From positions 67,015 through 131,014 of the forward strand of contig JAJYEA010000001.1 in the NCBI GenBank assembly GCA_021790425.1: 64,000 nucleotides of DNA. Reading direction: 5' to 3'. Below, one piece after another: positions 9,561 to 64,000 of this stretch. Under the pieces are notes generated by a model that saw only the letters and a program-made list of their open reading frames with translations, searched no databases and was not told the DNA's origin. Each line of letters begins with the position of its first letter. Positions within the stretch are counted from its first letter, which is position 1. The translations under genes and the position numbers were made by a program. The DNA comes from Thermoplasmata archaeon (lineage in GTDB: Archaea; Thermoplasmatota; Thermoplasmata; Lutacidiplasmatales; UBA184).

Positions 9561-9659
9561 GGGGCGGCCGAGAAGGGAAGAGAATTTAGTGCTGCCGCTC
9601 CGTCCGCCGGCTCGGCCGCGGCGGCCGCTCCCCCCTTCCGGGCGGGTGATCGCGCGAGG

Positions 9660-20451: not shown

Positions 20452-20540
20452 AGAGGGGGCGTTCCTCGCCGGAGGGAACCCCGAGGACTACGAATGGCTT
20501 ATACGGACATCCAGTCTGGTTGCGGAGGGTGAGGGGTCGC

Positions 20541-22298: not shown

Positions 22299-22302
22299 AA
22301 CC

Positions 22303-23205
22303 ATGTCGATCACGAACGAATCGCAGGTCAAGACGACGGGACAACTGCCGGTGATCACGGTCGGGAAGTCCGGGACGAAGCCGACGTGGTGCCCCGGGTG
22401 CGGGGACTACGGGGTCCTCGCCGGGGTCGAGCGCGCGGTGAAGATGCTCGACCTGCCCCCCCACGAGGTCCTGATCGTGAGCGGCATCGGGTGCTCCTCC
22501 AATCTCCCCCACTTCCTGAACTCCTACGGGTTCCACGCCATCCACGGGCGCGCGGTCGCGGTCGCCGAGGGGGCGAAGCTCGCCAACCATGGCCTCCACG
22601 TGATCGTCACGGGAGGGGACGGGGACGGCTACGGCATCGGGGTGGGGCACCTCATCCATGCCATGCGCCGGAACATCGACCTCACTTACGTGGTGATGAA
22701 CAACGAGATCTACGGGCTCACCACGGGCCAGGCGTCCCCCACGAGCCTGATGGGGGCCAAGACCAAGAGCACCCCCCTCGGGGTCATCGAGCAGCCGATC
22801 AACCCCATCGCGCTCGCCCTCTCCTCAGGCGCGACCTACGTGGCCCGGGCCTTCTCGGGCGACGTGAAGCACATGGGGGACATGATCGCCGGCGGGATCC
22901 GGCACAAGGGGTTCTCGCTGATCGACGTGCTCTCCCCCTGCGTGACCTACAACCACCTCAACTCCTACGACTACTTCCGGCAGCGCGTCTACAAGCTCGA
23001 GAACTCGGGCCACGACCCATCCCAGCTCATGAAGGCCTACGAGAAGTCCTTCGAGTGGGAGCCCCGGGTCCCGACGGGACTCTTCTACCAGGTGTCGAAG
23101 CCGACCTACGAGGACCTAGAGCCGGCGCTCAAGGCGGGGCCGCTGGCCCACCAGCCGGTGACGGGTCTGAAGGGGAAACGCGATCTCCTCGAGGAGTTCG
23201 TCTAG
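22303..23205 (+). CDS. korB: 2-oxoacid:ferredoxin oxidoreductase beta subunit (TPP-binding)
   Basis: CPGCGDYG Fe-S motif and GGDGDGYGIG TPP motif. Start lies 5 nt after the korA stop, with an RBS. Confidence 0.9.
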   Translation: MSITNESQVKTTGQLPVITVGKSGTKPTWCPGCGDYGVLAGVERAVKMLDLPPHEVLIVSGIGCSSNLPHFLNSYGFHAIHGRAVAVAEGAKLANHGLHVIVTGGDGDGYGIGVGHLIHAMRRNIDLTYVVMNNEIYGLTTGQASPTSLMGAKTKSTPLGVIEQPINPIALALSSGATYVARAFSGDVKHMGDMIAGGIRHKGFSLIDVLSPCVTYNHLNSYDYFRQRVYKLENSGHDPSQLMKAYEKSFEWEPRVPTGLFYQVSKPTYEDLEPALKAGPLAHQPVTGLKGKRDLLEEFV

Positions 23206-51710: not shown

Positions 51711-54700
51711 GTGTCCGGCGGTGGTTGCCGAGGCATAGCACGGATATCTTCATTACCCCGACGGGCTCTTGCCTCGCTCGTGCGCTGGACCCGACCCACG
51801 CTGGCGTTGGTGCTCACGGCGATCTTGGTGGCAGGGTTCCTGGCCATCCCGGGAGCTCCCGGTGACATGGAGCACGGGGCGGCCCAGCTCTCGGCCGGGC
51901 TCCTTACGATGCTCCCAGCGTTCGAGTCCATCTACCCGGGCGCCCGAGACCTCGGAGCGGTTGCCCCGTCCACCCCGATGACGGTCGGCCTGGCCCTCTC
52001 TCCCAACGACCCCCGCGCGCTCGACGCGTACGTGTATGCCGAGTACACCCCCGGGTCCCCCGCCTACGGTCACGAGCTCAACCCGCAGAAGTTCCAGACG
52101 TACTTCTCCCCCTCCGCAGCGGACTACCGCGCGGTGCAGAGCTACTACGCGGCCTACGGGCTCTCGACGATCACGACCCCCGACCGGCTGATGATCGGCC
52201 TCACCGGGACGGCGGGTCACATTTCGAATGCCTTCCACACGAGCTTCCACCGCTTCCAGTTGACCGACGGGGCCGACGTCTACGGGGCCTCCCAATCGGT
52301 GGTGGTTCCGGCAGGGCTGTCGATCGACGGGGTCACCGGGATGACGAACGCCTGGGGTCCCCGACCGACCGATATCAACCCCGGGCAGGTCGAGGCCGCC
52401 GCGGCGGGCTGGGCCCACAGCGAGAAGACGGCCACGCCGGGAACATGGACATGCACCTCCGGCACGCAAGGGTGTGACGAGCCCGGCTACTACGGCGAGT
52501 ATCCCCTCTTCAACGCAGGGGATACCGGCCAGGGTGTCAACGTGGGGATCGTCGACGCCTACGACAGTGCCGAGACCCAGTCCCAGCTCCTGAGCTCCGA
52601 GCAGAGCTTCGCGAGCGGGGCAGGGCTGCCCGCGCCGCACGAGAACTTCTGGTACCCGATCCCGGGTGCGGGCAACCTGAACACCTCCGCGAGCAGCGGA
52701 TGGGCAGGGGAGACCGACCTCGACCAGCACATGGCCTTCATGGACGCTCCCGGGGCCAACATCGATGTCACGTTCGCTTCCGACAGCTCCTTCGCGGTCT
52801 ACGAGGCCGTGGACTTCCTGGTGGCCCACAACCTGACCCAGACCATCTCGATGTCGTGGGGCGAGTCCGATGTGGGGAACATGCAGGCGCCTCCCCAGGG
52901 TCCGTGCATGCCCTACTACAGCTGCAACGCGTCGTATGACGGCTCCTACGCCTTCCTTCACCCCGTGTTCGCGGAGGCCGTGGCCGAGGGGATCACCCCC
53001 TTCGCGGCCGCCGGGGACTGTGGCGCGGCGGACGGCACTTACACGGTCGCGACGGACTACCCTTCGAGCGACCCCTTCGTGGTGGGCGTGGGAGGCACCC
53101 AGCTGAACGGCAGCGGCTCCACCTATGCGGGGGAGACGGGATGGAGCGGCAACGGCACGGGATGCACCGCGAACACCGGGGGCGGGGGCGGAGGCTACGC
53201 GCCCTGGGCCCAGCCCTGGTGGCAGCACGGCCCGGGCCAGCTCACCCACCACCTCCGGGGAGTACCGGACGTCAGCGCGGACTCGGCGGACGGGACCAGC
53301 CAGGCGTCCCCGATGTGGGCCGGCTGGGTCGCCGTGGCCGACCAGATCCACGGAGGGGGGCTCGGGCTCATCGGCCCCTCGATGTACAACATCCTGAGCA
53401 ACGCCACGGAATACGCGGCCGACTTCCACGACATCAAGACCGGGAACAACGGGTACGCCGCGGGCACCGGTTGGGACCCCATCACGGGGATCGGGACCCC
53501 CGTCACTGGCGCGCTCTTGCCGGCGCTGGGCCGCTACCTGCCGCCCGTCCACGGGTCCTTGAACGTCTCCCTCGCGGCCACGCCGACCTCGGGCTCCGCG
53601 CCCCTGTCCGTCACGTTCACCGCCTCTGCGAGCGGAGGCACCCCTCCCTACTGGTACGACTTCGTGCCCGGGCTGTACCTGGGCCAAGTCTCGAACACCC
53701 CGTCCATCACCTACCCGTACGCCTCGGCCGGACCGTACTACGCGACGGTCGTCGCGTGGGATGCCGCGGGCAACTCCTCCATCTCCAACCCGGTCCTCGT
53801 CCACGTCGGCGACTCCGCGTTGACGGCGACGCTCGCGGCCTCCGCGACCCACGTTCTGGTCGGGCAGACCGTCACCTTCACGGGAGGGGCGAGCGGCGGG
53901 ACGGCACCGTACCAGTTCACGTACTTCTACGGGGACGGCACCTACGGATACAACCGGAGCACGAGCGCGACGCACGCCTACCTCTCTCCGGGCACCTACT
54001 GCGCCTACGCCTTCGTGACGGATGGGGCGGCCACGCAGAACGGCGGTGTCACGAACCCGGTCTGCGTCACGGCGAGCTATTCCTCAGGGTCGGGTCCCAC
54101 GATCTCCTCCTTCACGGCCTCCCCTTCCACCATCACCGTCGGCGGCACGACCTACCTCAACGTCTCCGCCTCCGGCGGGACGGGACCCCTCGCCTACGCC
54201 TACTCCGGCCTTCCCGCCCCCTGCGCGAGCTCCAACTCCAGCGCCATCACGTGCACCCCTTCCGCCGTGGGCGGTCCCTACTCCATCACGGTGACCGTCA
54301 GCGACAGTGCCTCTCCCCGTCACACCACCAGCGCCACGACCTCCTTCACGGTCACCTCGACCGGAGGCACGGGACCGACCATCTCCACCTTCACCGCGAG
54401 CCCCTCCTCCATCCCCGCGGGGGGCACGACCTACCTCAACGTCACCGCCTCGGGAGGCGTCGGCCCGCTGACCTACGCCTACTCCGGCCTTCCCACTCCC
54501 TGCGCGAGCTCCAACTCGAGCTCGATCACCTGCGCCCCCGCTTCCTCGGGAGGGCCGTACACCATCACCGCGACGGTCTCCGACTCGGCCCCGTCTCCCC
54601 ACTCCACCTCTGCCACCACCTCCTTCACCGTCACCCCGAGTGGAGGGACGGGACCGACCATCTCCTCCTTCACCGCGAGCCCGGCCTCTATCCCCGCGGG

Positions 54701-55958
54701 GGGCACCACCTACCTCAACGTCACCGCCTCGGGAGGCGTCGGACCCCTGAGCTACGCTTACTCCGGGCTCCCCGCTCCCTGCGCGAGCTCCAACTCCAGT
54801 TCGATCACCTGCGCCCCCACCTCCTCGGGCGGTCCGTACACCATCACCGTGACGGTCAAGGATTCGGCCTCGACTCCCCGCTCCACCTCTGCCACCACCT
54901 CCTTCACCGTCACCCCGAGCGGAGGGACGGGACCGACCATCTCCTCCTTCACCGCGAGCCCCTCCTCCATCCCCGCGGGAGGGACGACCTACCTCAACGT
55001 CACCGCCTCGGGAGGCGTCGGGCCCCTGAGCTACTCGTACTCCGGACTTCCCGCCCCCTGCACCAGCACCAATGCGAGCAGGATCACGTGCGCCCCCACC
55101 TCCTCGGGCGGTCCGTACACCATCACCGCGACGGTCAAGGATTCGGCGTCCTCGCCCCACACGACCGCCGCCACCGCCACGTTCACGGTCACCCCGGCCC
55201 CGCTCGCGATCAGCAGCCTCACCGCATCCCCCGCATCGATCCCCTCGGGAGGAACCACGTTCCTGAACGTGACCGCCACGGGGGGGTACCCCGCCTACAC
55301 CTACCTGTACAACGGCCTGCCTTCGGACTGCGCTTCCGCGAACGCGTCCACCCTGACGTGCTCCAGCATCCTGGCCGGCACCTATGATGTCACGGTCAAG
55401 GTCACCGACACCGCATCGAACTCGGCGACCCGGTCGGCCCCCTTCACCGTGCAACCGTCGGTGGCGAGCAAGCCGGTCGTGAGCCAGTTCTACGCTTCGC
55501 CCAGCCCGCTTGCCCTCGGAGGACAAACCACCTTCTACGTGTCCGCCACCGGAGGGGCTCCGCCCTACACCTACAGCTATGTGGGACTTCCCACGGGATG
55601 CTCCAGCTCGAACTCGGGATCCCTCTCGTGCACCCCGACCGGCACGGGGACGTTCAACGTCACCGTCACCGTGACGGACACCCGAGGTCAATCGGCCCTG
55701 GCGAACACCTCGGTCGTCGTCACGGCGGCACCGAGCTCGGGACCGGGGTCGACCGGGATCCTGTCGGGTTGGTCGCTCTGGATCCTGCTCGCGGTCGTCG
55801 TGGTCGCGGTGGTCATCGCCGCCGTCCTCGTTTCACGCCGACGCAAGGGACCCGGGAACGCCACCCCTCCCGGGTATCTGCCCCCGGGAGCGACCTCCGC
55901 GAGCCCGCCCTGGCAGGCGCCTCCGGGGGCTCCTCCGCCAGCCCCCTGGCAGGAGTAG
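51711..55958 (+). CDS. membrane-anchored surface protease: pro-kumamolisin-like propeptide, sedolisin (S53) domain, PKD domain, 6 x ~93-aa two-Cys Ig-like repeats, C-terminal TM
   Basis: GWAGETDLDQHMAF and GTSQASPMWAG S53 motifs. PKD signature YFYGDGTYGYN..THAY. Repeats of the form GPTISSFTASP..GGTTYLNVTASGGVGPLSYAYSGLPAPCASSNSS.ITCAP. C-terminal helix LWILLAVVVVAVVIAAVLV plus SRRRK. GTG at 51711; alternative GTG at 51777 (MRWTRPTLALVLTAILVAGFLAI), with an AT-rich box ~30 nt upstream. Confidence 0.8.
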   Translation: MSGGGCRGIARISSLPRRALASLVRWTRPTLALVLTAILVAGFLAIPGAPGDMEHGAAQLSAGLLTMLPAFESIYPGARDLGAVAPSTPMTVGLALSPNDPRALDAYVYAEYTPGSPAYGHELNPQKFQTYFSPSAADYRAVQSYYAAYGLSTITTPDRLMIGLTGTAGHISNAFHTSFHRFQLTDGADVYGASQSVVVPAGLSIDGVTGMTNAWGPRPTDINPGQVEAAAAGWAHSEKTATPGTWTCTSGTQGCDEPGYYGEYPLFNAGDTGQGVNVGIVDAYDSAETQSQLLSSEQSFASGAGLPAPHENFWYPIPGAGNLNTSASSGWAGETDLDQHMAFMDAPGANIDVTFASDSSFAVYEAVDFLVAHNLTQTISMSWGESDVGNMQAPPQGPCMPYYSCNASYDGSYAFLHPVFAEAVAEGITPFAAAGDCGAADGTYTVATDYPSSDPFVVGVGGTQLNGSGSTYAGETGWSGNGTGCTANTGGGGGGYAPWAQPWWQHGPGQLTHHLRGVPDVSADSADGTSQASPMWAGWVAVADQIHGGGLGLIGPSMYNILSNATEYAADFHDIKTGNNGYAAGTGWDPITGIGTPVTGALLPALGRYLPPVHGSLNVSLAATPTSGSAPLSVTFTASASGGTPPYWYDFVPGLYLGQVSNTPSITYPYASAGPYYATVVAWDAAGNSSISNPVLVHVGDSALTATLAASATHVLVGQTVTFTGGASGGTAPYQFTYFYGDGTYGYNRSTSATHAYLSPGTYCAYAFVTDGAATQNGGVTNPVCVTASYSSGSGPTISSFTASPSTITVGGTTYLNVSASGGTGPLAYAYSGLPAPCASSNSSAITCTPSAVGGPYSITVTVSDSASPRHTTSATTSFTVTSTGGTGPTISTFTASPSSIPAGGTTYLNVTASGGVGPLTYAYSGLPTPCASSNSSSITCAPASSGGPYTITATVSDSAPSPHSTSATTSFTVTPSGGTGPTISSFTASPASIPAGGTTYLNVTASGGVGPLSYAYSGLPAPCASSNSSSITCAPTSSGGPYTITVTVKDSASTPRSTSATTSFTVTPSGGTGPTISSFTASPSSIPAGGTTYLNVTASGGVGPLSYSYSGLPAPCTSTNASRITCAPTSSGGPYTITATVKDSASSPHTTAATATFTVTPAPLAISSLTASPASIPSGGTTFLNVTATGGYPAYTYLYNGLPSDCASANASTLTCSSILAGTYDVTVKVTDTASNSATRSAPFTVQPSVASKPVVSQFYASPSPLALGGQTTFYVSATGGAPPYTYSYVGLPTGCSSSNSGSLSCTPTGTGTFNVTVTVTDTRGQSALANTSVVVTAAPSSGPGSTGILSGWSLWILLAVVVVAVVIAAVLVSRRRKGPGNATPPGYLPPGATSASPPWQAPPGAPPPAPWQE
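54080..55200. repeat. tandem 279-bp near-identical coding repeats (4 copies) in the second S53 gene
   Basis: gggacgggaccgaccatctcc(t/a)ccttcaccgcgagccc recurs at ~54377, ~54656 and ~54935. Confidence 0.75.
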
Positions 55959-56090: not shown

Positions 56091-56684
56091 ATGAGCGCCA
56101 GACCGGTAGCCCTACCGGGGGGCCATGGACTCTACGAAGTACGATTCCACGGACGCGGAGGGCAGGGGACGGTCATCGCGTCCACGCTCCTGGCGGAAGC
56201 TGCCTTCCTCGAAGGCCGGGACGTGCAGGCCTTCCCCTTCTTCGGTGTCGAGCGCCGGGGAGCGCCCGTGCTGGCGCACACCCGGATCGGGGAGGGACAG
56301 ATCCGGCTGGCCACCTCGGTCCGCTATCCGGACGCGATCATCGTGATGGACCCCACGCTCGTGCGGCCGGGCAGCCCGATCTTCGCGAGCCTTCGCGCGG
56401 GTGGGGACGTCCTGGTCAACACCGTGCGGCCCCCTCGGGAGCTTCAACTGGCCGTGGACGGCCACCTGGCCTCCGTGGACGCCGTGAGCGTCGCGATCCG
56501 TCACGGGCTGGGGTCGCGGGCGAACCCGATCGTGAACACGGTCATCCTGGGAGCCTTTGCGAAGCTCACCCACGTGGTGGAACTCTCCTCGCTCGAGGAG
56601 GCCATCCGGCAGAAGGTGCCCTCCCACACCGATGCGAACATCGCGGCCGCGCGTGAGGCCTACGGGCTCGTGGAGGCCGCATGA
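56091..56684 (+). CDS. porG: pyruvate/2-ketoisovalerate:ferredoxin oxidoreductase gamma subunit
   Basis: YEVRFHGRGGQGTVIAS...FPFFGVERRGAPV. Confidence 0.9.
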   Translation: MSARPVALPGGHGLYEVRFHGRGGQGTVIASTLLAEAAFLEGRDVQAFPFFGVERRGAPVLAHTRIGEGQIRLATSVRYPDAIIVMDPTLVRPGSPIFASLRAGGDVLVNTVRPPRELQLAVDGHLASVDAVSVAIRHGLGSRANPIVNTVILGAFAKLTHVVELSSLEEAIRQKVPSHTDANIAAAREAYGLVEAA

Positions 56685-56953
56685 CGACCCTCGCCGGGCG
56701 CGATCTCATCGGGCCCATGGCGTGGATGTCCAGCGAGCCGGGTTCCACGGCCGCCTCGTGGCGGACCCAGCGCCCGCAGCTTGACACGGCCAAGTGCACG
56801 GGATGCATGGTCTGCTGGAAGTTCTGCCCGGACACGGCGATCGCCCCGGAAGGGAAGAAGGTCGCGTTCGACTTCAACCTCTGCAAGGGATGCGGCGTCT
56901 GTGCCCAGGTCTGCGCACCGAAGGCCATCGACATGCTCCCGGAGGGCCTCTGA
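56681..56953 (+). CDS. porD: pyruvate:ferredoxin oxidoreductase delta subunit (2 x [4Fe-4S] ferredoxin)
   Basis: CTGCMVCWKFCP and CKGCGVCAQVCAP. Start overlaps the porG stop (ATGA). Confidence 0.9.
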   Translation: MTTLAGRDLIGPMAWMSSEPGSTAASWRTQRPQLDTAKCTGCMVCWKFCPDTAIAPEGKKVAFDFNLCKGCGVCAQVCAPKAIDMLPEGL

Positions 56954-58125
56954 TGACGCGGCATCTCCTGTCGGGGAATCAGGCCGTCGGCGAGGCGGTG
57001 CGCCTGGCACGGGCCCAGGTGGTGGCCGCCTACCCGATCACCCCCCAGACCACGATCGTCGAGCATCTGGCCGAGGCCGTCGGGAAGGGAGACCTCCTGG
57101 CGGACTTCATCACGGTCGAGAGCGAGCACTCGGCGATGGCGGCCTCCGTGGGCGCGTCGATCGCCGGGGCCCGCGCCTTCACCGCCACCTCGAGCCAGGG
57201 TCTCGCGCTCATGCACGAGATGCTCCACTGGGCGTCCGGCCAGCGGACCCCCGTCGTCATGGCGAACGTGAACCGCGCGCTCGCCCCCCCGTGGAACATC
57301 TGGGTGGACCACTCGGACTCGATGGCCCAGCGCGACACCGGCTGGATCCAGGTCTACGCGGAGACGAACCAGGAGGTCCTCGACACGATCCTCCAGGTCT
57401 ACCGGTTGGCCGAGGACAAGCGGGTCATGGTGCCCGCGATGGTCATGCTCGATGCCTTCTCGCTGTCGCACACGTACATGCCGGTCGACGTCCCGGAGTC
57501 GGACGTGATCGACCGCTACCTTCCCCCGTACTCCCCTCCCCAGAAGGTGCTGCCCGAGACCACGCAGCTCTTCGGGTCCTTCTCGCCCCCGGAGCTTTGC
57601 TACATGGAGCTCCGCCACGACCTCGAGGTCGCGATGCACCAGGCCCGGATACTCCTGCCCCAGGTGGAGGAGGAGTACACCCAGCTCACCGGACACCCGT
57701 CCTTCGGCGCCGTGGACGAGTACCGGACCGACGACGCGGAGGTGGTGCTGATGGCCATGGGCTCGCTCGCGGCCACCGCACGCGACGCGGTCGACGCCCT
57801 GCGCCGGGAAGGCAAGAAGGTGGGGCTCGCACGGATGCGGCTCTTCCGGCCCTTCCCCGCGGATGCGGTCCGATCGCTCGGGGAGCGATTCCACCGGATC
57901 GCGGTGCTCGACCGGGCCGTGTCCTACGGGTCCGGAGGACCGCTGGCGGGCGAGGTGCGCGCCGCACTCCTCGGGATCGCCGACCCGCCCGTTCTCGCCG
58001 CCTACATCGCCGGCCTCGGCGGGCGCGAGGTCACCCAGGAGCAGATCCGCTCGATCTTCGAGCGGCTGCTGAGCGGCAACGGTCTCCCCTCGGAAGAGTG
58101 GGTCGGACTGAAGGTGGAGGGGTAA
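56953..58125 (+). CDS. porA: pyruvate:ferredoxin oxidoreductase alpha subunit
   Basis: GNQAVGEAVRLARAQVVAAYPITPQT. TGATG overlap with porD. GGAGGG RBS. Confidence 0.9.
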   Translation: MTRHLLSGNQAVGEAVRLARAQVVAAYPITPQTTIVEHLAEAVGKGDLLADFITVESEHSAMAASVGASIAGARAFTATSSQGLALMHEMLHWASGQRTPVVMANVNRALAPPWNIWVDHSDSMAQRDTGWIQVYAETNQEVLDTILQVYRLAEDKRVMVPAMVMLDAFSLSHTYMPVDVPESDVIDRYLPPYSPPQKVLPETTQLFGSFSPPELCYMELRHDLEVAMHQARILLPQVEEEYTQLTGHPSFGAVDEYRTDDAEVVLMAMGSLAATARDAVDALRREGKKVGLARMRLFRPFPADAVRSLGERFHRIAVLDRAVSYGSGGPLAGEVRAALLGIADPPVLAAYIAGLGGREVTQEQIRSIFERLLSGNGLPSEEWVGLKVEG

Positions 58126-58127
58126 CC

Positions 58128-59009
58128 ATGGTGAAGCTCACCCTGCCCGAGGCCGAGCTCATGGACGGGGGGCACGTCGCCTGCCAAGGGTGCGGAGCGG
58201 CCCTCGCGATGCGCCTCTTCCTGAAGGGCACCGGCCCGGACACCGCGCTCGTCATTCCCGCGTGCTGCTGGGCGGTCATCGCCGGTCCCATGCCGACCAC
58301 CTGCCTCCGGGTGCCCACGGTCTTCTCCGCCTTCGAGGCGACCGCGGCCGTGGCCTCCGGGCTCAAGGCCGGCCTTCGCCGGACGGGCGCCCCGAAGACC
58401 ATCGTCGCGGGCTTCGCGGGCGATGGCGGTACCGCCGACATCGGTATCCAGGCGCTCTCCGGCGCGGCCGAGCGCAACGAGGACATGATCTATGTCTGCT
58501 ACGACAACGAGGCGTACATGAACACGGGCGTCCAGCGCTCGGGGGCGACCCCGCCGGGCACCTGGACGACGACGACCCCGCGCGGCCTCGAGAAGTCCAC
58601 TCCCAAGAAGGACATGCCGGGGATCATGGTGGCGCACAAGGTCCCCTACGTCGCGACCCTGAACCCCTCCTTCCCGGAGGACTTCGTGGCCAAGGTCAAG
58701 AAGGCCGCGTCCCTCCCGGGGCTCCGTTACCTGCACGTGCTCGCCGACTGCCCGACCGGATGGAAGCACGACCCCGCCCTGATGGTCGAGGTGGGCCGCC
58801 TGGCCACCATGAGCCACTTCTTTCCCCTCTACGAGGTGGAGAACGGCCGGTACCGGATGACGTGGGAGCCCGGACAGCCCGCCCCCGTGGCGAAGTACCT
58901 GAAGGGGCAGGGACGCTATTCCCAGCTGACCGACGCCGACATCGTCAAGGTCCAGAGCGATGTCGACGCGCGCTGGGCGGCGCTGAAGAAGCTCACCACC
59001 CCCGCGTAG
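58128..59009 (+). CDS. porB: pyruvate:ferredoxin oxidoreductase beta subunit (TPP-binding)
   Basis: CQGCGAALAMR and GDGGTADIG TPP motifs. GGTGGAGGGG RBS. Confidence 0.9.
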   Translation: MVKLTLPEAELMDGGHVACQGCGAALAMRLFLKGTGPDTALVIPACCWAVIAGPMPTTCLRVPTVFSAFEATAAVASGLKAGLRRTGAPKTIVAGFAGDGGTADIGIQALSGAAERNEDMIYVCYDNEAYMNTGVQRSGATPPGTWTTTTPRGLEKSTPKKDMPGIMVAHKVPYVATLNPSFPEDFVAKVKKAASLPGLRYLHVLADCPTGWKHDPALMVEVGRLATMSHFFPLYEVENGRYRMTWEPGQPAPVAKYLKGQGRYSQLTDADIVKVQSDVDARWAALKKLTTPA

Positions 59010-59144
59010 GTCTGGCGATCGCGGGAGGACCCGAGCCCTGCGGCCCGTGACCGGGGAGCTCCCGCACCTCGGTACGACCTATATTGACCATATCGGTTAG
59101 ACAAAACTGTCATAAAGCCCCCGCGGCTGGGTCGCTCGATCATC

Positions 59145-60188
59145 ATGCCCGAACGGGGGGGACCAACCCAGGAGACGATGCTGCGGGCCCTGAAGCTGAT
59201 GGTGACGGGCCGCGTGGCCGACGAGCGGAGCGTGAACCTGCAGCGCCAGGGACGGATCGGTTTCTATGTCCAGATGGACGGGCAGGAAGCGGCCCAGGTC
59301 GGATGCGGGCTCGCCCTGGAGCCGGAGGACTGGGTGGTCCCGGCCTACCGGGAGCTCGGCGTGGCGCTCGCGCGGGGGGTCCCGCTCCAGACGCTCTTCG
59401 ACCAGTTCTACGCCAACTCCAACGATGAGAACAAGGGACGCCAGATGCCCACCCACTACGGCTACCGGGCGTACCGCTACGTGACCGCCTCGAGCCCGGT
59501 GGGTACCCAGATCATCCACGCGGTGGGCCTCGGCATGGCGGCCCGCTACAAGGGGGAGAAGTCCGTGACGGTCCCCTTCTTCGGGGATGGCGCGACCAGC
59601 TCGAGCGACTTCCACGCGGGGCTCAACTTCGCGGGGGTCTACAACGCCCCGGTCGTCTTCTTCTGCCAGAACAACGGGTGGGCCATCTCGCTCCCGCGGG
59701 AGAAGCAGACCCGGTCGAAGACGCTCGCCGGGAAGGCCGAGGCCTACGGCATCCGCGGCGTCCAGGTCGACGGGAACGACTTCGCCGCCGTCTACCGCGT
59801 GGTGCAGGAGGCGCGGGAACGGGCGGTCTCCGGAGAGGGGCCCACGCTCGTGGAGGCGTTGACCTACCGCATGGGTTCCCACTCCACCTCGGACGATCCC
59901 ACGCGCTATCGTTCTACGGCCGAGGTGGCGTCGTGGAAGCAGAAGGACCCGATCGAGCGGCTCGCGCGCGACCTCATCGCGCGCGGGTGGATCACGGAGG
60001 ACCAGTTCGAGGCCCTTCAGGAGGCCGCCCGGGCCGAGGTCCAGGCCGCCATCCAGACGGCCGAACAGACCCCGCCGACGTCGCCCGACACGCTCTTCAC
60101 CGACGTCTTCAAGAGCAATCCCAGTTACGTCGAGGAGCAGAGGGCCGAGCTGAGCGAACTCGTGCGGGAGGGAGTGGTGAAGCCATGA
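59145..60188 (+). CDS. 2-oxoacid (branched-chain/pyruvate) dehydrogenase E1 component alpha subunit (TPP)
   Basis: GDGATSSSDFHAGLNFAGVYNAPVVFFCQNNGWAIS TPP motif. YRxGxHSTSDDP phosphorylation-loop-like region. AT-rich box (gtcataaagcc) ~28 nt upstream of the ATG. Confidence 0.9.
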   Translation: MPERGGPTQETMLRALKLMVTGRVADERSVNLQRQGRIGFYVQMDGQEAAQVGCGLALEPEDWVVPAYRELGVALARGVPLQTLFDQFYANSNDENKGRQMPTHYGYRAYRYVTASSPVGTQIIHAVGLGMAARYKGEKSVTVPFFGDGATSSSDFHAGLNFAGVYNAPVVFFCQNNGWAISLPREKQTRSKTLAGKAEAYGIRGVQVDGNDFAAVYRVVQEARERAVSGEGPTLVEALTYRMGSHSTSDDPTRYRSTAEVASWKQKDPIERLARDLIARGWITEDQFEALQEAARAEVQAAIQTAEQTPPTSPDTLFTDVFKSNPSYVEEQRAELSELVREGVVKP

Positions 60189-61165
60189 CGCAGGTCACGC
60201 TGATCCAGGCCATCAACCAGGGGCTCCGGCAGGCCATGAAGACCGACCCGGACGTCGTCCTCATGGGCGAGGACATCGGGGTGAACGGTGGTGTCTTCCG
60301 GGCGACCGACGGGCTCTACAAGGAGTTCGGGGAAGCACGGGTCATCGACACCCCCCTGAGCGAGAACGGGATCGTCGGGATGGCGATCGGGATGGCGCTC
60401 TACGGCCTCAAGCCCGTCGCGGAGATCCAGTTCATGGACTTCATCTACCCCGCCTTCGACCAGATCGTCAACGAGGCGGCGAAGTTCCGGTACCGGTCGG
60501 GCGGCCAGTTCCCCTGCCACGTGGTGATCCGTACCCCCTTCGGGGGCGGGATCCGGGGCGGGCTCTACCACTCGCAGAGCACCGAGCAGCTCTTCGCGAG
60601 CACCCCGGGGCTCAAGGTGGTGATCCCCTCCACCCCCGCGGATGCGAAGGGGTTGCTCCTCACCGCCATCCACGACGAGGAGGACCCCGTCATCTTCCTC
60701 GAGCCGAAGAGGATCTACCGCACCGCGACCGGCGAGGTGCCGGAGGGCGACCACCGGATCCCGTTCGGAAAGGCCCGGGTGGTGAAGGAGGGGAGCGACG
60801 TCACGGTCGTCTCCTACGGCGCGATGGTCCCCCAGTCCCTCCAGGCGGTCAACGCGGTGGAGAAGATGGGCGTCCACGCGGAGCTCATCGACCTGCGCAC
60901 CCTCGTCCCCCTCGACTACGAGACCGTCCTCCGGTCGGTCGAGAAGACCGGTCGCGCGGTGATCGTCCACGAGGCGTCCAAGTTCGCCGGGTTCGGCGCG
61001 GAGCTCTCCGCGATCATCTCCGAGCGGGCGCTCTACCACCTCAAGGCCCCCATCCTGCGGATCGCGGGATATGACACTCCGTTCCCCTACGCCCTGGAGA
61101 ACCTCTACCTGCCGAGCGTCGACCGGATTGCGCGAGGGATCGAGCGGACCGCCACCGCGACCTAG
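60185..61165 (+). CDS. 2-oxoacid dehydrogenase E1 component beta subunit
   Basis: Transketolase-like pyrimidine-binding and C-terminal domains. ATGA overlap with E1alpha. Confidence 0.9.
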   Translation: MTQVTLIQAINQGLRQAMKTDPDVVLMGEDIGVNGGVFRATDGLYKEFGEARVIDTPLSENGIVGMAIGMALYGLKPVAEIQFMDFIYPAFDQIVNEAAKFRYRSGGQFPCHVVIRTPFGGGIRGGLYHSQSTEQLFASTPGLKVVIPSTPADAKGLLLTAIHDEEDPVIFLEPKRIYRTATGEVPEGDHRIPFGKARVVKEGSDVTVVSYGAMVPQSLQAVNAVEKMGVHAELIDLRTLVPLDYETVLRSVEKTGRAVIVHEASKFAGFGAELSAIISERALYHLKAPILRIAGYDTPFPYALENLYLPSVDRIARGIERTATAT

Positions 61166-61184
61166 GGTCGCGGGGGCTTGAACC

Positions 61185-62477
61185 ATGTACGAATTCCGGC
61201 TGCCGGACATCGGAGAAGGGGTCGCCCAGGGAGAGGTCGTCAAGTGGCACGTCAAGGTCGGTGACGCGGTCCGCGAGGACCAGCCGCTGCTCAGCGTCCT
61301 GACGGACAAGGCGAACGTGGAGATCCCCTGCCCGGTCCAGGGCAAGGTCACCGCCCTCCACGCCCAGGAGGGCCAGGTGGTCCCGGTCGGCTCCCTGCTC
61401 GTCACCTTCGAGACCGAGGGCAAGGCGCCGCCCCCTGCCGCCCATGGCGTGGCGGCTGCCCCCCCGCCGCCCGCGGCAACCCCAGCTTCCCCACCCCCGG
61501 CTCCCTCGGCCACCGTGGTCACCACCCCGGCCATCCGACGGCGGGCCAACGAGCTCGGGGTGGACCTGCGCCTGGTCCCGGGGACCGGGCCCTCCGGCCG
61601 GATCGTCGACGCGGACCTCGACCGTTTCGTGAAGGGCGGGGGCAAGGCACCGCCCCCTGCCGCCCCGGGTGCACCGCCTGCGCCGCCTGTCCCGGCGTCC
61701 CCTCTCGGGGTCGCCCGTGCCGCCATCCCCTCCCCGCCGCAAGCCCCCTTGGTGACAGGGGAGGGAGCTCCCCTTCAGGAGCGGGTCCCCATCCGTGGAC
61801 TCCGCCGGACCATCGCGGAGCACATGGCGCTCGCGAAGTCGCGCGCGGCCCACTTCACCTACGTGGAGGAGATCGATGTCTCCGAGCTCGTGCGCGTGCG
61901 GGAGCGGGCGAAGAAGCGGATGGAGGAGAAGGGGGTCCCGCTCACCTATCTCCCCTTCATCGTGAAGTCCGTGGTGGAGAGCCTGAAGGACCATCCCACC
62001 CTGAACGCGCTCATGGACGACGAGAAGGGCGAGCTGGTGGTCTGCCACTACTACCACATCGGGGTCGCCACCGCGGCGCCGGACGGACTGATCGTGCCCG
62101 TGGTGAAGAACGCCGACCACAAGTCCATCGCGACGATCGCGAAGGAGATCGAGGACCTCTCCGCGCGGGGCCGGGCGGGGAAGCTGTCCCGGGAGGAGCT
62201 CACCGGCTCCACCTTCACCATCTCGAGCCTCGGCGCCCTGGGCGGTGTCCTCGCCACCCCCATCCTCAACTACCCCGAGGTCGCGATCCTGGGCGTGCAC
62301 AAGATCGAGAAGAAGCCCGTGGTGCTCGCCGACGGGACGATCGGGATCGGTCACCGGATGAACCTCTCCATCAGCCTTGACCACCGGGTGGTCGATGGCT
62401 ACGTCGGCGCCCAGTTCCTCGCGGCGGTCAAGGGGCGGCTCGAAGACCCGCACCAGCTCCTGCTGGAACTGCGATGA
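61185..62477 (+). CDS. 2-oxoacid dehydrogenase E2 component (dihydrolipoamide acyltransferase), single lipoyl domain
   Basis: Lipoyl motif LSVLTDKANVEIP. E3-binding domain TPAIRRRANELGVDL. Catalytic DHRVVDG. Confidence 0.9.
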   Translation: MYEFRLPDIGEGVAQGEVVKWHVKVGDAVREDQPLLSVLTDKANVEIPCPVQGKVTALHAQEGQVVPVGSLLVTFETEGKAPPPAAHGVAAAPPPPAATPASPPPAPSATVVTTPAIRRRANELGVDLRLVPGTGPSGRIVDADLDRFVKGGGKAPPPAAPGAPPAPPVPASPLGVARAAIPSPPQAPLVTGEGAPLQERVPIRGLRRTIAEHMALAKSRAAHFTYVEEIDVSELVRVRERAKKRMEEKGVPLTYLPFIVKSVVESLKDHPTLNALMDDEKGELVVCHYYHIGVATAAPDGLIVPVVKNADHKSIATIAKEIEDLSARGRAGKLSREELTGSTFTISSLGALGGVLATPILNYPEVAILGVHKIEKKPVVLADGTIGIGHRMNLSISLDHRVVDGYVGAQFLAAVKGRLEDPHQLLLELR

Positions 62478-63562
62478 GCGCCGCGGTGGCGGGACTCGTC
62501 CCCCTGCCGTACGGCCGGGAGGACCTCCCCGGGCTCCTCGGGCCGAACTGGGAGGAGTGGCTGAGGACCGCCTACCGCTGGATGCTCCTCGGTCGTGTCC
62601 TCGACACCCGGATGCTCGGGATGCAACGCCAGGGCCGGGTGGGGTTCTACGGTCCCGCCACGGGGCACGAGGCGGCCAATGTCGGCCTGGCGCTGTCGCT
62701 CCGGAAGGAGGACTGGGTCTTTCCCGGTCTCCGGGAACAGCTCGTCGCGCTCGCCCGGGGCCACCCCCTGGGCCAGTACGTGCACCACCTCTTCACGAAC
62801 GGTGTCGACCCCTGCAAGGGACGCCAGATGCCGTGCCACCCCACTGCGCGGGAGGTCCACTACGTCTCCATGTCCAGCACGGTGGGCTCCCAGATCATCC
62901 ATGCCGTCGGATGTGCCTACGCCATGCGGCTCCGGAAGGACCCCGGGGCGGCCGTGGCCTGTTTCGGCGACGGGGCCACGAGCACGAACGAATTCCACGC
63001 CGGGATGAACTTCGCCGGCGTCTACCAGCTGCCGGTGCTCTTCTTCTGCGCGAACAACCAGTGGGCCATTTCCCTGCCGGTGTCGAAGCAGACGAGGGTC
63101 CCGGTGCTGGCCGACAAGGCGGGGGAGTACGGCTTTAACGGGGTACGAATCGACGGGACGGATGTGATTGCCGTGTTCCACACCGTACGGGCCGCGCGGG
63201 AGCGTCTGGCGGAGCAAGGACCCACCCTCGTCGAACCCCTCGTCTACCGGATGACGCCGCACACGTCCTCGGACGACCCCACCCGGTACGTCCCGAAGGG
63301 ATGGATGGAGGAGGCGGCCGCGCACGACCCGCTTACCCGTCTCGAGGAACTGCTGGACCGCACGGGCGTCCTCGCGGTGACGGCCCGGGAGACGCTCCGG
63401 CAGGAGCTCGAGACCGAACTCCGCAAGCTCATCGCCGAGGCCGAGGTCACCCCTCCCCCGGGTCCCGACACGCTCTTTGTGGACACGTTCCGGGACACCT
63501 TCTGGCCGCTGACCGAGGACCGGGATTCCTTCGATCGAGAGCAGGGAGGGCATTTCCCATGA
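62474..63562 (+). CDS. second, divergent E1 alpha paralog (TPP-dependent 2-oxoacid dehydrogenase alpha) between E2 and E3
   Basis: GDGATSTNEFHAGMNFAGVYQLPVLFFCANNQWAIS. Roughly 50-55% identity to the first E1alpha by eye. ATGA overlaps at both ends. Confidence 0.85.
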   Translation: MSAAVAGLVPLPYGREDLPGLLGPNWEEWLRTAYRWMLLGRVLDTRMLGMQRQGRVGFYGPATGHEAANVGLALSLRKEDWVFPGLREQLVALARGHPLGQYVHHLFTNGVDPCKGRQMPCHPTAREVHYVSMSSTVGSQIIHAVGCAYAMRLRKDPGAAVACFGDGATSTNEFHAGMNFAGVYQLPVLFFCANNQWAISLPVSKQTRVPVLADKAGEYGFNGVRIDGTDVIAVFHTVRAARERLAEQGPTLVEPLVYRMTPHTSSDDPTRYVPKGWMEEAAAHDPLTRLEELLDRTGVLAVTARETLRQELETELRKLIAEAEVTPPPGPDTLFVDTFRDTFWPLTEDRDSFDREQGGHFP

Positions 63563-64000
63563 CGCGAACCGTGGACGTCCTGGTCATCGGAGGGGGACCG
63601 GCGGGCTATGTCGCCGCTCTCCGCCTGGGACAGCTGGGGCGCAAGCCCCTCGTCGTGGAACGAGAGTACCTCGGAGGAGAGTGCCTCAACCGCGGGTGCA
63701 TCCCTTCCAAAGCCCTGATCCATGCCTCTCACCTGTACGCTACCCTGCGCCGCCACGGCGCCGAGATGGGCCTTCATGCCGAGGGGACGACGGTGGACAT
63801 CCCGGCCATGCAGGCCTGGAAAGGAGGCGTCGTGGAGAAGGAACGCAAGGGGATCGAGACGTTGTTCCGTTCCGCGGGCGTCGAGTGGGTGAAGGGCACG
63901 GCCCGTCTGACCGGACCCACCACCGCACAGCTTGACGACGGGGAGTCGGTGTCGTTCCAGGCGTGCATCCTGGCCACCGGGGGATACCATGTCGCGCTCC
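63559..64000 (+). CDS. lpdA: dihydrolipoamide dehydrogenase (E3), 3'-partial
   Basis: FAD motif VLVIGGGPAGYVAA and redox disulfide GGECLNRGCIPSK. ORF runs off the window end. Confidence 0.85.
   Translation, partial: MTRTVDVLVIGGGPAGYVAALRLGQLGRKPLVVEREYLGGECLNRGCIPSKALIHASHLYATLRRHGAEMGLHAEGTTVDIPAMQAWKGGVVEKERKGIETLFRSAGVEWVKGTARLTGPTTAQLDDGESVSFQACILATGGYHVAL

What the first reader, a model, noticed from the sequence alone, without database searches (positions are those of the whole stretch)
56091..64000. Contiguous 2-oxoacid oxidation supercluster: porGDAB followed by an OADH operon with an extra E1alpha paralog (E1a-E1b-E2-E1a'-E3)
A ferredoxin-dependent four-subunit POR/VOR-type operon is followed 135 bp later by an NAD-dependent 2-oxoacid dehydrogenase complex operon. 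Within that operon, a second, divergent E1alpha is inserted between E2 and E3. It is translationally coupled on both sides (ATGA overlaps) and has no E1beta of its own. The implication is one E1beta/E2/E3 core served by two alternative substrate-recognition subunits, for example pyruvate versus branched-chain or 2-oxoglutarate substrates. A two-subunit OFOR (korAB) is encoded 35 kb upstream.
Basis: seen in the sequence. Interest (0 to 1): 0.5.

Follow-up and report, generated by a model that had tools for sequence, protein, structure and literature searches.

The report
Two E1-alpha subunits sharing one E1-beta
An uncultured Thermoplasmata archaeon has a 2-oxoacid dehydrogenase operon with two catalytically intact E1-alpha genes but only one E1-beta, E2 and E3; the second alpha belongs to a widespread, apparently undescribed subfamily that is always encoded after E2 and has a remodelled substrate pocket.

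Summary
The genes are porGDAB (56091-59009), a 135-nt spacer, then E1a-E1b-E2-E1a'-E3 (59145 to beyond 64000), with ATGA overlaps on both sides of E1a'. No second E1-beta lies in the window or in the 4 kb downstream on the source contig.

E1a' is not a pseudogene. It keeps every TPP, Mg and catalytic residue, models confidently as a canonical E1-alpha, and is under purifying selection comparable to E1a, E2 and E3.

E1a' is not a local insertion either. The same gene order occurs in eight other Thermoplasmata loci, six Planctomycetota loci and one Kofleriaceae locus. Six bacterial loci have E1b-E2-E1a'(-E3) with no other alpha, so this type of alpha works with the operon's beta.

The E1a' group carries two near-universal changes, Met87 to Gly and Tyr113 to Leu (human BCKDH numbering). 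Both residues bind the substrate side chain in human BCKDH. E1a keeps a BCKDH-like pocket.

The best reading is two alternative E1 enzymes (alpha2beta2 and alpha'2beta2) on one beta/E2/E3 core, with different substrate ranges. The substrates are unknown.

The POR-OADH "supercluster" is not conserved in relatives and is probably incidental. I rate this a new variant of a known kind, of moderate interest.

The parts
56091..56684 (+). porG: gamma subunit of a four-subunit 2-oxoacid:ferredoxin oxidoreductase (POR/VOR type)
   Evidence: PF01558 E=1.3e-36. TIGR02175 PorC_KorC scores 186 bits against a cut-off of 81. ATGA overlap with porD.
56681..56953 (+). porD: delta subunit, 2x[4Fe-4S] ferredoxin-like
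   Evidence: Fer4 families. TIGR02179 PorD_KorD scores 89 bits against a cut-off of 60.
56953..58125 (+). porA: alpha subunit
   Evidence: POR_N E=1.8e-69 and PFOR_II. PorA_Arch scores 475 bits (cut-off 550) and the VOR alpha model scores 402 bits, so POR versus VOR is unresolved. The gene call is 390 aa on the source contig.
58128..59009 (+). porB: beta (TPP-binding) subunit
   Evidence: TPP_enzyme_C. The VOR-beta model PRK11864 scores 383 bits and PorB scores 347 bits, both below their cut-offs.
59078..59119 (+). AT-rich island in the 135-nt spacer, with TATA-like elements (CCTATATTGACC at 59078-59089 and GTCATAAAGCC at 59109-59119). It is the probable archaeal promoter of the OADH operon, 26-36 nt upstream of the E1a ATG.
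   Evidence: Sequence read: about 43% GC in a 68% GC genome. TTATAA/ATAAA-like elements occur at a similar place upstream of E1a in L084, L086, L004, L005 and L007, although the upstream genes differ. The promoter function is inferred, not shown.
59145..60188 (+). E1a: E1-alpha with a BCKDH-like substrate pocket (F40, V42, Y68, Met at the position of human Met146, S117, P118, V119)
   Evidence: PF00676 E=1.7e-101. The best PDB sequence match is human BCKDH E1-alpha at 294 bits. ATGA overlap with E1b.
60185..61165 (+). E1b: the only E1-beta (Pyr domain plus C-terminal domain). It is the inferred partner of both alphas.
   Evidence: Transket_pyr and Transketolase_C. The best PDB match is T. thermophilus E1-beta at 388 bits. 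No other beta lies in the window or on the source contig. It is the most conserved gene of the operon.
61185..62477 (+). E2: dihydrolipoamide acyltransferase with one lipoyl domain, one E3/E1-binding domain and a catalytic domain
   Evidence: Biotin_lipoyl, E3_binding and 2-oxoacid_dh.
62474..63562 (+). E1a': second E1-alpha, a member of the 'after-E2' subfamily. The cofactor and catalytic residues are intact (G165-D166-G167, N195, R87, R259, H263, D267, D268). The pocket is altered at G60 (codon 62651-62653; human Met87) and L86 (codon 62729-62731; human Tyr113), and also at C121 and T136.
   Evidence: PF00676 E=2.8e-72. It is 49% identical to E1a. The AlphaFold model has pLDDT 86.7 and TM 0.81 to T. 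thermophilus E1-alpha 1umb. ATGA overlaps on both sides. dN/dS is 0.18-0.30.
63559..64000 (+). E3: dihydrolipoyl dehydrogenase, N-terminal 147 codons only (cut by the window end)
   Evidence: TIGR01350 E=7e-46 over the fragment. The full 469-aa gene, followed by lipB, is on source contigs L001 and L002.

Best explanation
The OADH operon encodes one lipoate-dependent 2-oxoacid dehydrogenase complex that can carry two different E1 enzymes. E1a and E1a' each combine with the single E1b to form alpha2beta2 and alpha'2beta2 heterotetramers.

In this enzyme class the beta subunit supplies the pyrimidine-binding half of the TPP site and the surface that docks on the E2 peripheral-subunit-binding domain. 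Both E1 forms would therefore use the same E2 lipoyl arm and the same E3.

E1a has the pocket of a branched-chain 2-oxoacid dehydrogenase. In E1a', two side-chain-binding residues are replaced by smaller or non-aromatic ones (Met87 to Gly, Tyr113 to Leu, human numbering), and the neighbouring loop is changed (Pro163 to Thr/Val/Cys). It is therefore predicted to accept a different, probably bulkier or differently shaped, 2-oxoacid.

Shown: gene content and order, intact catalytic residues, conservation, purifying selection, pocket differences, and the existence of operons with alpha' as the sole alpha. Inferred: physical alpha'-beta pairing in this organism, the different specificity, and its direction.

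The porGDAB operon upstream is a separate ferredoxin-dependent enzyme. Its adjacency is not conserved.
For: 1. Only one beta. There is no second E1-beta in the window or on the source contig. None of the 28 alpha'-type genes found in related loci has a beta gene next to it, whereas every upstream alpha counted (58) is followed by a beta, because a following beta is how that class was defined.
2. Six bacterial loci (L014, L020, L023, L024, L034, L036) have E1b-E2-alpha' with no other alpha detectable by tblastn; E3 follows in the three loci that extend far enough (L014, L020, L024). L024 is the compact case, with all four genes within about 5 kb. This type of alpha therefore works with the operon's beta.
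3. The cofactor and catalytic residues are kept in 28/28 locus sequences and in about 100% of 240 further homologs: GDG, N222, R114, R287, H291, D295, D296.
4. The fold is intact: pLDDT 86.7, TM 0.81 to T. thermophilus and human BCKDH E1-alpha.
5. dN/dS of E1a' is 0.18-0.30, the same range as E1a, E2 and E3. Every ortholog examined is an intact ORF.
6. The two strongest group-specific changes are Met87 to Gly (25/28 and 237/240) and Tyr113 to Leu (27/28 and 240/240), against Tyr or Phe in 58/58 upstream alphas. PMC12655727 lists Phe85, Met87, Tyr113, Met146 and Leu164 as the alpha-chain residues that bind the branched-chain radical in human BCKDH.
7. E1a' is translationally coupled to E2 and E3 by ATGA overlaps.
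8. From established knowledge and PDB 1W85 (listed): heterotetrameric E1 binds the E2 binding domain through beta. The TPP site lies at the alpha/beta interface, so an alpha cannot act alone.
Against: - No biochemical or expression data exist for any member.
- Alpha'-beta pairing in this archaeon is inferred from gene content only; the rest of the genome was not searched for an orphan beta.
- The direction of the specificity change is a guess from residue size, and no neighbouring gene hints at a substrate.
- Tyr113 also lies next to Arg114 near the TPP diphosphate, so its loss could affect cofactor handling rather than substrate choice (my recollection of the BCKDH literature, not checked here).
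- Monophyly of the alpha' group gets only 44-46% NJ bootstrap support.
- When the 12 discriminating columns are masked, the archaeal alpha' no longer prefers the bacterial alpha' profile. Convergence of the archaeal and bacterial forms is therefore not excluded.
Confidence: 0.6

Rival explanations
1. Isozymes with the same substrates. E1a and E1a' both oxidise the same branched-chain 2-oxoacids or pyruvate and differ only in kinetics, stability or regulation (for example by oxygen, temperature or substrate affinity), like mammalian PDHA1 and PDHA2, which share PDHB.
For: Both fall in the BCKDH / Gram-positive-PDH type of E1-alpha. They share F85, M146, S162 and I/V164. The genes sit in one operon and so are probably co-expressed.
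Against: The changes that define the alpha' group sit on side-chain-binding residues and are almost invariant across phyla, which points to substrate recognition. Co-transcription in one operon argues against differential regulation at the transcript level.
Confidence: 0.15
2. Mixed heterotetramer. E1a and E1a' assemble together with two beta subunits (alpha-alpha'-beta2), giving one E1 with two non-equivalent active sites, or with alpha' as a modulatory partner.
For: The genes are co-transcribed with a single beta. E1 enzymes are known for communication between their two active sites (general knowledge).
Against: Operons with alpha' as the only alpha exist, so alpha' does not need the other alpha. 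Alpha' keeps a full catalytic set.
Confidence: 0.12
3. E1a' pairs with an E1-beta encoded elsewhere in the genome, or works outside the complex. Its place in the operon then reflects only co-regulation.
For: The rest of the genome could not be searched. A few alpha'-type genes lie apart from E2 or beta genes (the 'solo' loci L021, L026, L029 and L041, on short contigs).
Against: No alpha'-type gene in 28 loci has an adjacent beta. Compact beta-E2-alpha' operons exist. Alpha' is translationally coupled to E2 and E3.
Confidence: 0.06
4. POR and OADH form a functional, co-selected '2-oxoacid oxidation supercluster', giving anaerobic and aerobic routes for the same substrates.
For: They lie 135 nt apart on the same strand in this genome. 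A large secreted sedolisin-like protease gene lies just upstream, which is compatible with amino-acid catabolism.
Against: None of eight related Thermoplasmata loci has por genes within 5-10 kb of the operon; their upstream genes are a hydrolase, an FGGY kinase and P5C reductase. A conserved TATA-like element precedes E1a whatever the upstream gene is. A transposase lies near the operon on the source contig.
Confidence: 0.07

Closest known systems
Heterotetrameric (alpha2beta2) branched-chain 2-oxoacid dehydrogenase E1: human BCKDH (PDB 1DTW and others), Thermus thermophilus (1UM9/1UMB), Pseudomonas putida (2BP7)
   Same: Both alphas share the fold, the TPP/Mg motif and the catalytic His. E1a has the same pocket residues (F85, hydrophobic 87, Y113, M146, S162, P163). 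The operon also encodes beta, E2 and E3.
   Different: This operon has a second alpha with Gly at position 87 and Leu at 113, encoded after E2 and without its own beta. NCBIfam places E1a' below the cut-off of its closest equivalog model (341 bits against 411).
Thermoplasma acidophilum OADH complex (E1alpha-E1beta-E2-E3 operon), the characterised archaeal complex (my recollection of Heath et al. 2004/2007; not read here)
   Same: An archaeal lipoate-dependent complex from the same class (Thermoplasmata), with a heterotetrameric E1 and a four-gene core.
   Different: As I recall, that operon has a single alpha. The only Thermoplasmatales-type alpha in my set (L075) belongs to a different pocket group (T85/A87/Y113). 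The window's operon is closer to bacterial operons.
Hybrid PDH-ODH complex of Corynebacterium glutamicum (AceE and OdhA on one AceF/Lpd core; PMC7568260, PMC10581250)
   Same: One E2/E3 core serves two E1 enzymes with different substrates.
   Different: There the two E1s are complete, separate homodimeric proteins. Here only the alpha half is duplicated and the beta half is shared. Sharing is demonstrated experimentally there and only inferred here.
Human OGDH and DHTKD1 sharing DLST and DLD (bioRxiv 10.1101/2020.01.20.912931; discussed in PMC12655727)
   Same: Paralogous E1s on a common E2/E3. The paralog with the more spacious active site takes the larger substrate.
   Different: These are homodimeric E1s encoded at separate loci in a eukaryote.
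Mammalian PDHA1/PDHA2 sharing PDHB (PMC12240641)
   Same: Two alpha paralogs use one beta.
   Different: Same substrate, tissue-specific expression, separate loci. There is no pocket remodelling of the kind seen here.

Membership tests
E1-alpha of heterotetrameric 2-oxoacid dehydrogenases (Pfam PF00676 E1_dh) | Full-length E1_dh domain | tested here: met
   E1a matches profile positions 2-298 of 300 (E=1.7e-101). E1a' matches 1-299 of 300 (E=2.8e-72).
E1-alpha of heterotetrameric 2-oxoacid dehydrogenases (Pfam PF00676 E1_dh) | TPP/Mg motif G-D-G...N-N and diphosphate-binding Arg (human G192, E/D193, G194, N222, R114) | tested here: met
   E1a' has G165-D166-G167, N195 and R87. E1a has G147-D148-G149, N177 and R69. 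The residues are kept in 28/28 alpha'-type sequences and about 100% of 240 homologs.
E1-alpha of heterotetrameric 2-oxoacid dehydrogenases (Pfam PF00676 E1_dh) | Catalytic His of the active-site loop (human His291), with R287, D295 and D296 | tested here: met
   E1a' has H263, R259, D267 and D268. E1a has H246, R242, D250 and D251.
E1-alpha of heterotetrameric 2-oxoacid dehydrogenases (Pfam PF00676 E1_dh) | Fold of the alpha subunit | tested here: met
   The AlphaFold model of E1a' has pLDDT 86.7. Foldseek gives TM 0.81 to 1umb and 0.80-0.82 to human BCKDH E1-alpha.
E1-alpha of heterotetrameric 2-oxoacid dehydrogenases (Pfam PF00676 E1_dh) | Own E1-beta gene immediately downstream (the usual arrangement) | tested here: not met
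   Met for E1a (ATGA overlap with E1b). Not met for E1a', which is followed by E3. None of the 28 alpha'-type genes has an adjacent beta.
E1-alpha of heterotetrameric 2-oxoacid dehydrogenases (Pfam PF00676 E1_dh) | Forms alpha2beta2 and decarboxylates a 2-oxoacid | not testable with these tools
   Needs co-expression and an enzyme assay.
Branched-chain 2-oxoacid dehydrogenase E1-alpha (BCKDH-type pocket) | Side-chain pocket of Phe85, Met87 (or another large hydrophobic residue), Tyr113, Met146 and Leu164, as listed for human BCKDH in PMC12655727 | tested here: not met
   E1a meets it (F40, V42, Y68, Met at 146, V119). E1a' does not: it has G60 at position 87 and L86 at position 113.
NCBIfam TIGR03181 PDH_E1_alph_x (equivalog: pyruvate dehydrogenase E1-alpha, Gram-positive type) | Score above the curated cut-off of 411.35 bits | tested here: not met
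   E1a' scores 340.7 bits. E1a scores 414.0 bits, marginally above the cut-off. An automated name is not evidence of substrate.
Four-subunit 2-oxoacid:ferredoxin oxidoreductase, pyruvate/2-ketoisovalerate family (porGDAB / vorGDAB) | Gamma, delta, alpha and beta subunits encoded together, above the subfamily cut-offs | tested here: met
   TIGR02175 (gamma) and TIGR02179 (delta) are above their cut-offs. The alpha and beta subunits have the correct domains but fall below both the POR and VOR equivalog cut-offs, so the substrate class is unresolved.
Lipoate-dependent 2-oxoacid dehydrogenase complex operon | E1 (alpha and beta), E2 with lipoyl, subunit-binding and catalytic domains, and E3 | tested here: met
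   lipB (octanoyltransferase) follows E3.
Shared-core (hybrid) OADH complexes (C. glutamicum PDH-ODH; OGDH/DHTKD1) | Two E1 species physically bound to one E2/E3 core | not testable with these tools
   Inferred from the single beta, E2 and E3 in the operon. This is a functional analogy, not family membership.

The most novel reading that the evidence does not exclude
The after-E2 alpha (Gly87/Leu113) gives the complex a substrate class for which I know of no dedicated NAD-dependent OADH complex. Candidates are aromatic 2-oxoacids (phenylpyruvate, 4-hydroxyphenylpyruvate, indolepyruvate) or 4-methylthio-2-oxobutyrate. A single beta/E2/E3 scaffold would then switch substrate range by swapping alpha subunits. 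This modular design would be spread across Thermoplasmata, Planctomycetota, Myxococcota and Verrucomicrobiota, possibly by operon transfer between domains.
Probability: 0.2. Interest if true: 0.65.

Novelty: new variant of a known kind. Interest (0 to 1): 0.5.

Why it matters
2-oxoacid dehydrogenase complexes are textbook machines in which each complex has its own E1. Known exceptions share E2/E3 between complete E1 proteins.

Here the evidence points to a finer modularity. The substrate-recognising alpha half of E1 is exchangeable on a common beta, E2 and E3, within one operon.

The second alpha belongs to a conserved, abundant and generically annotated ('pyruvate dehydrogenase E1 alpha') subfamily with a diagnostic pocket signature and a diagnostic gene position. 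Metabolic reconstructions of soil and sediment Thermoplasmata, Planctomycetota and Myxococcota currently treat these genes as ordinary PDH or BCKDH, which may mis-assign a catabolic capacity.

The hypothesis can be tested directly with four recombinant proteins.

Tried and rejected
1. Pseudogene or degenerate paralog: rejected. The ORFs are intact, all catalytic residues are present and selection is purifying.
2. Recent lineage-specific duplication: unlikely. Archaeal alpha' groups with archaeal alpha in only 2-8% of NJ bootstraps, and the same order and signature occur in several bacterial phyla.
3. Firm cross-domain orthology: could not be established.
   - The alpha' clade gets only 44-46% bootstrap support.
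   - A profile cross-test favoured orthology. The signal mostly vanished when the 12 discriminating columns were masked.
4. Substrate hints from neighbouring genes led nowhere.
   - The genes inserted in Kofleriaceae loci are regulators, a histidine-kinase-type ATPase-domain protein, CarboxypepD_reg-domain proteins and unknowns.
   - Planctomycetota flanks give lipA, VWA and nuclease genes.
   - Thermoplasmata flanks are unrelated.
5. A search for E2-alpha' or alpha'-beta fusion proteins among long representatives found none of the alpha' type. Only an alpha-beta fusion and an ankyrin-alpha fusion of the ordinary type turned up.
6. The bacterial promoter/terminator scan found nothing, as expected for an archaeon.
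7. Literature searches for a prokaryotic two-alpha OADH operon found nothing relevant. The library lacks most subscription-journal papers, so this is weak evidence of novelty.

Full report
**What is in the window.** The region holds nine consecutive genes on the + strand.
- porG 56091-56684
- porD 56681-56953
- porA 56953-58125
- porB 58128-59009
- E1a 59145-60188
- E1b 60185-61165
- E2 61185-62477
- E1a' 62474-63562
- E3 from 63559, cut by the window end

The domain assignments are unambiguous. The porB-E1a spacer is 135 nt. ATGA start/stop overlaps join porG/porD, E1a/E1b, E2/E1a' and E1a'/E3. E1a and E1a' are 49% identical. A two-subunit OFOR lies at 20520-23205.

**Source and surroundings.** The identical E1a' protein is encoded on an ENA metagenome contig and on NCBI MAG contig DAHWRD010000093.1 of GCA_027340385.1. 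Its closest homologs (56-73% identity) come from Thermoplasmata MAGs, so the organism is an uncultured, 68% GC Thermoplasmata archaeon. On the longer contig, E3 (469 aa) is followed by lipB, a GNAT gene and an IS-type transposase. No second E1-beta is present there or anywhere in the 64-kb window.

**Is E1a' functional?** I aligned 94 E1-alpha sequences, including human BCKDH, T. thermophilus and G. stearothermophilus E1-alpha taken from the PDB alignments.
- E1a' keeps the GDG...NN TPP/Mg motif, Arg114, Arg287, His291, Asp295 and Asp296 (human numbering).
- The same holds for all 28 related 'after-E2' alphas and for about 100% of 240 further homologs.
- The numbering was checked against landmarks that I recall from the BCKDH literature and did not re-read here (E193, N222, Y224, H291/S292, S161-Q167).
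- The AlphaFold model is confident (pLDDT 86.7) and matches T. thermophilus and human BCKDH E1-alpha at TM about 0.8.
- Between three Thermoplasmata genomes, E1a' has dN/dS 0.18-0.30, like E1a, E2 and E3. E1b is the most constrained, at 0.07-0.16.

**Is the arrangement conserved?** Yes, and far more widely than expected.
- The order E1a-E1b-E2-E1a'-E3(-lipB) is found in Thermoplasmata loci L004-L007 and L084-L087; L088 is a truncated contig that begins inside E2 and shows E2(fragment)-E1a'-E3-lipB.
- It also occurs in Planctomycetota (L011, L015, L025, L030, L042, L043) and in one Kofleriaceae locus, L032.
- Six bacterial loci (Myxococcota/'delta' L014, L020, L023, L024, L034; Verrucomicrobiia L036) have E1b-E2-alpha' with no other alpha detectable by tblastn. 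E3 follows in L014, L020 and L024. L024 is the compact case, with the four genes within about 5 kb.
- I call the single-alpha' form type B and the two-alpha form type C.
- In an E1b tree the two types are interleaved. Type-B L020 is sister to type-C L032, so in Myxococcota the upstream alpha is the variable element.
- Methanomassiliicoccales, Heimdallarchaeota, haloarchaea and many bacteria have the plain alpha-beta-E2-E3 order.

**What distinguishes the after-E2 alpha?** Only two alignment columns separate the 28 alpha'-type sequences almost perfectly from the 58 upstream alphas.
- Human Met87 becomes Gly in 25/28. The upstream alphas have Ala, Pro, Val, Ile or Leu.
- Human Tyr113 becomes Leu in 27/28. 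The upstream alphas have Tyr in 37 and Phe in 21.
- Weaker markers are loss of Pro163 (27/28) and a Cys in GRQMPCH (22/28).
- In 240 further homologs, Leu113 is found in 240/240 and Gly87 in 237/240.
- About 22 of the best 150 representatives of 50%-identity clusters carry Gly87 plus Leu113. The subfamily is therefore sizeable. Public annotation calls its members simply 'pyruvate dehydrogenase E1 alpha' or 'TPP-dependent enzyme'.

PMC12655727 states that the branched-chain radical of the substrate in human BCKDH is bound by alpha-chain Phe85, Met87, Tyr113, Met146 and Leu164. The two signature changes are thus two of the five pocket residues. E1a and the other upstream alphas of type-C operons keep the human-like pocket: F85, V/L/I/M87, Y113, M146, S162, P163.

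**Mechanism.** In this enzyme class TPP binds between the alpha PP domain and the beta Pyr domain, and beta carries the surface that binds the E2 subunit-binding domain. This is established knowledge; see PDB 1W85, listed. An alpha cannot be active alone. Four lines of evidence bear on the partner:
- There is a single beta.
- Type-B operons exist.
- The catalytic residues are intact.
- E1a' is translationally coupled to E2 and E3.

The best-supported explanation is two alternative E1 heterotetramers on one beta/E2/E3 core. E1a serves branched-chain-type substrates, and E1a' serves a different substrate, probably bulkier or differently shaped. I put this at 0.6. The pairing and the specificity difference are inferred, and the substrate is unknown.

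The rivals are same-substrate isozymes (0.15), a mixed alpha-alpha'-beta2 enzyme (0.12), a beta encoded elsewhere (0.06) and a true POR-OADH functional cluster (0.07).

**The 'supercluster'.** None of the related Thermoplasmata loci has por genes near the operon. Their upstream genes are an alpha/beta hydrolase, an FGGY kinase and P5C reductase. The 135-nt spacer contains an AT-rich island with TATA-like elements 26-36 nt before the E1a ATG. Similar elements precede E1a in five relatives whatever the upstream gene is. The adjacency is therefore most likely incidental, and the two units are probably transcribed separately (inferred).

**Evolution and caveats.**
- A neighbour-joining tree puts all after-E2 alphas, archaeal and bacterial, in one clade, but with only 44-46% bootstrap support.
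- The alternative that archaeal alpha' is sister to archaeal alpha gets 2-8%.
- The upstream alphas of type-C operons are never monophyletic (0/100).
- A profile cross-test favoured cross-domain orthology. Most of that signal came from the discriminating columns.

A single origin with operon transfer between bacteria and Thermoplasmata is favoured by the gene position, the shared pocket residues and the weak tree signal. Convergence is not excluded.

**Comparison with known systems.**
- Sharing one E2/E3 core between two E1s is known from the C. glutamicum PDH-ODH hybrid complex (PMC7568260, PMC10581250) and from human OGDH/DHTKD1 (bioRxiv 10.1101/2020.01.20.912931).
- Two alphas on one beta are known from mammalian PDHA1/PDHA2 (PMC12240641).
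- I found no description of a prokaryotic operon with two alphas and one beta, nor of the after-E2 alpha subfamily. The searchable library is incomplete.

I classify the finding as a new variant of a known kind, with moderate interest (0.5). It is directly testable by reconstitution, and it matters for annotation of abundant uncultured lineages.

Noticed in passing
window 51711-55958 (+): A 1,415-aa ORF lies directly upstream of porG. The source-contig record lists Pro-kuma_activ (sedolisin/kumamolisin pro-domain) and PKD repeats for it. It looks like a large secreted protease, which fits a peptide- and amino-acid-degrading lifestyle. It has no NCBIfam hit at E<=1e-10.
   Followed up: partly
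window 20520-22298 and 22303-23205 (+): A two-subunit 2-oxoacid:acceptor oxidoreductase (TIGR03710 alpha at 596 bits; PRK11866 beta at 424 bits). The genome therefore has at least three 2-oxoacid-oxidising systems within 45 kb.
   Followed up: partly
L001 12482-14951 (source contig beyond the window end): E3 is followed by lipB (octanoyltransferase), a GNAT acetyltransferase with no family hit, and an HTH_33 + DDE_3 transposase pair. The transposase could relate to the local rearrangement that put por next to the OADH operon.
   Followed up: no
L014, L020, L023, L024, L034, L036: A permuted operon E1b-E2-alpha' with no alpha gene upstream of beta, in Myxococcota/'delta' and Verrucomicrobiia MAGs. 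E3 follows in L014, L020 and L024. In Kofleriaceae loci, unrelated genes (a sigma-54 activator, AIM24, a histidine-kinase-type ATPase-domain protein, CarboxypepD_reg proteins) are inserted between E2, alpha' and E3.
   Followed up: partly
L008 9998-10993 (Methanomassiliicoccales MAG): The single alpha of a plain alpha-beta-E2-E3-lipB operon has an intermediate signature: Gly87, Cys148 and Thr163 like alpha', but Tyr113 like ordinary alphas. It scores towards the alpha' profile. It may be an evolutionary intermediate.
   Followed up: no
L004 9004-9890: In one Thermoplasmata relative, about 0.9 kb separates E2 from alpha'. It holds a 253-aa ORF (9084-9845) with no Pfam match. In the window the two genes overlap.
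   Followed up: partly
L025 3935-4960; L042 5312-6286: In Planctomycetota type-C operons, lipoyl synthase (lipA; Radical_SAM + LIAS_N) sits immediately upstream of the first alpha. In Thermoplasmata, lipB sits downstream of E3. The operons carry their own lipoylation genes.
   Followed up: partly
P0217 (714 aa), P0193 (642 aa): Among the database representatives there is an E1 alpha-beta fusion protein and an ankyrin-repeat-E1-alpha fusion. Both are of the ordinary Tyr113 type.
   Followed up: no
L021, L026, L029, L041: Alpha'-type genes (Gly87/Leu113) with no E2, beta or E3 detected on the same contig (4-9 kb long). Alpha' is therefore not always inside the operon, or these contigs are too short to show it.
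   Followed up: no
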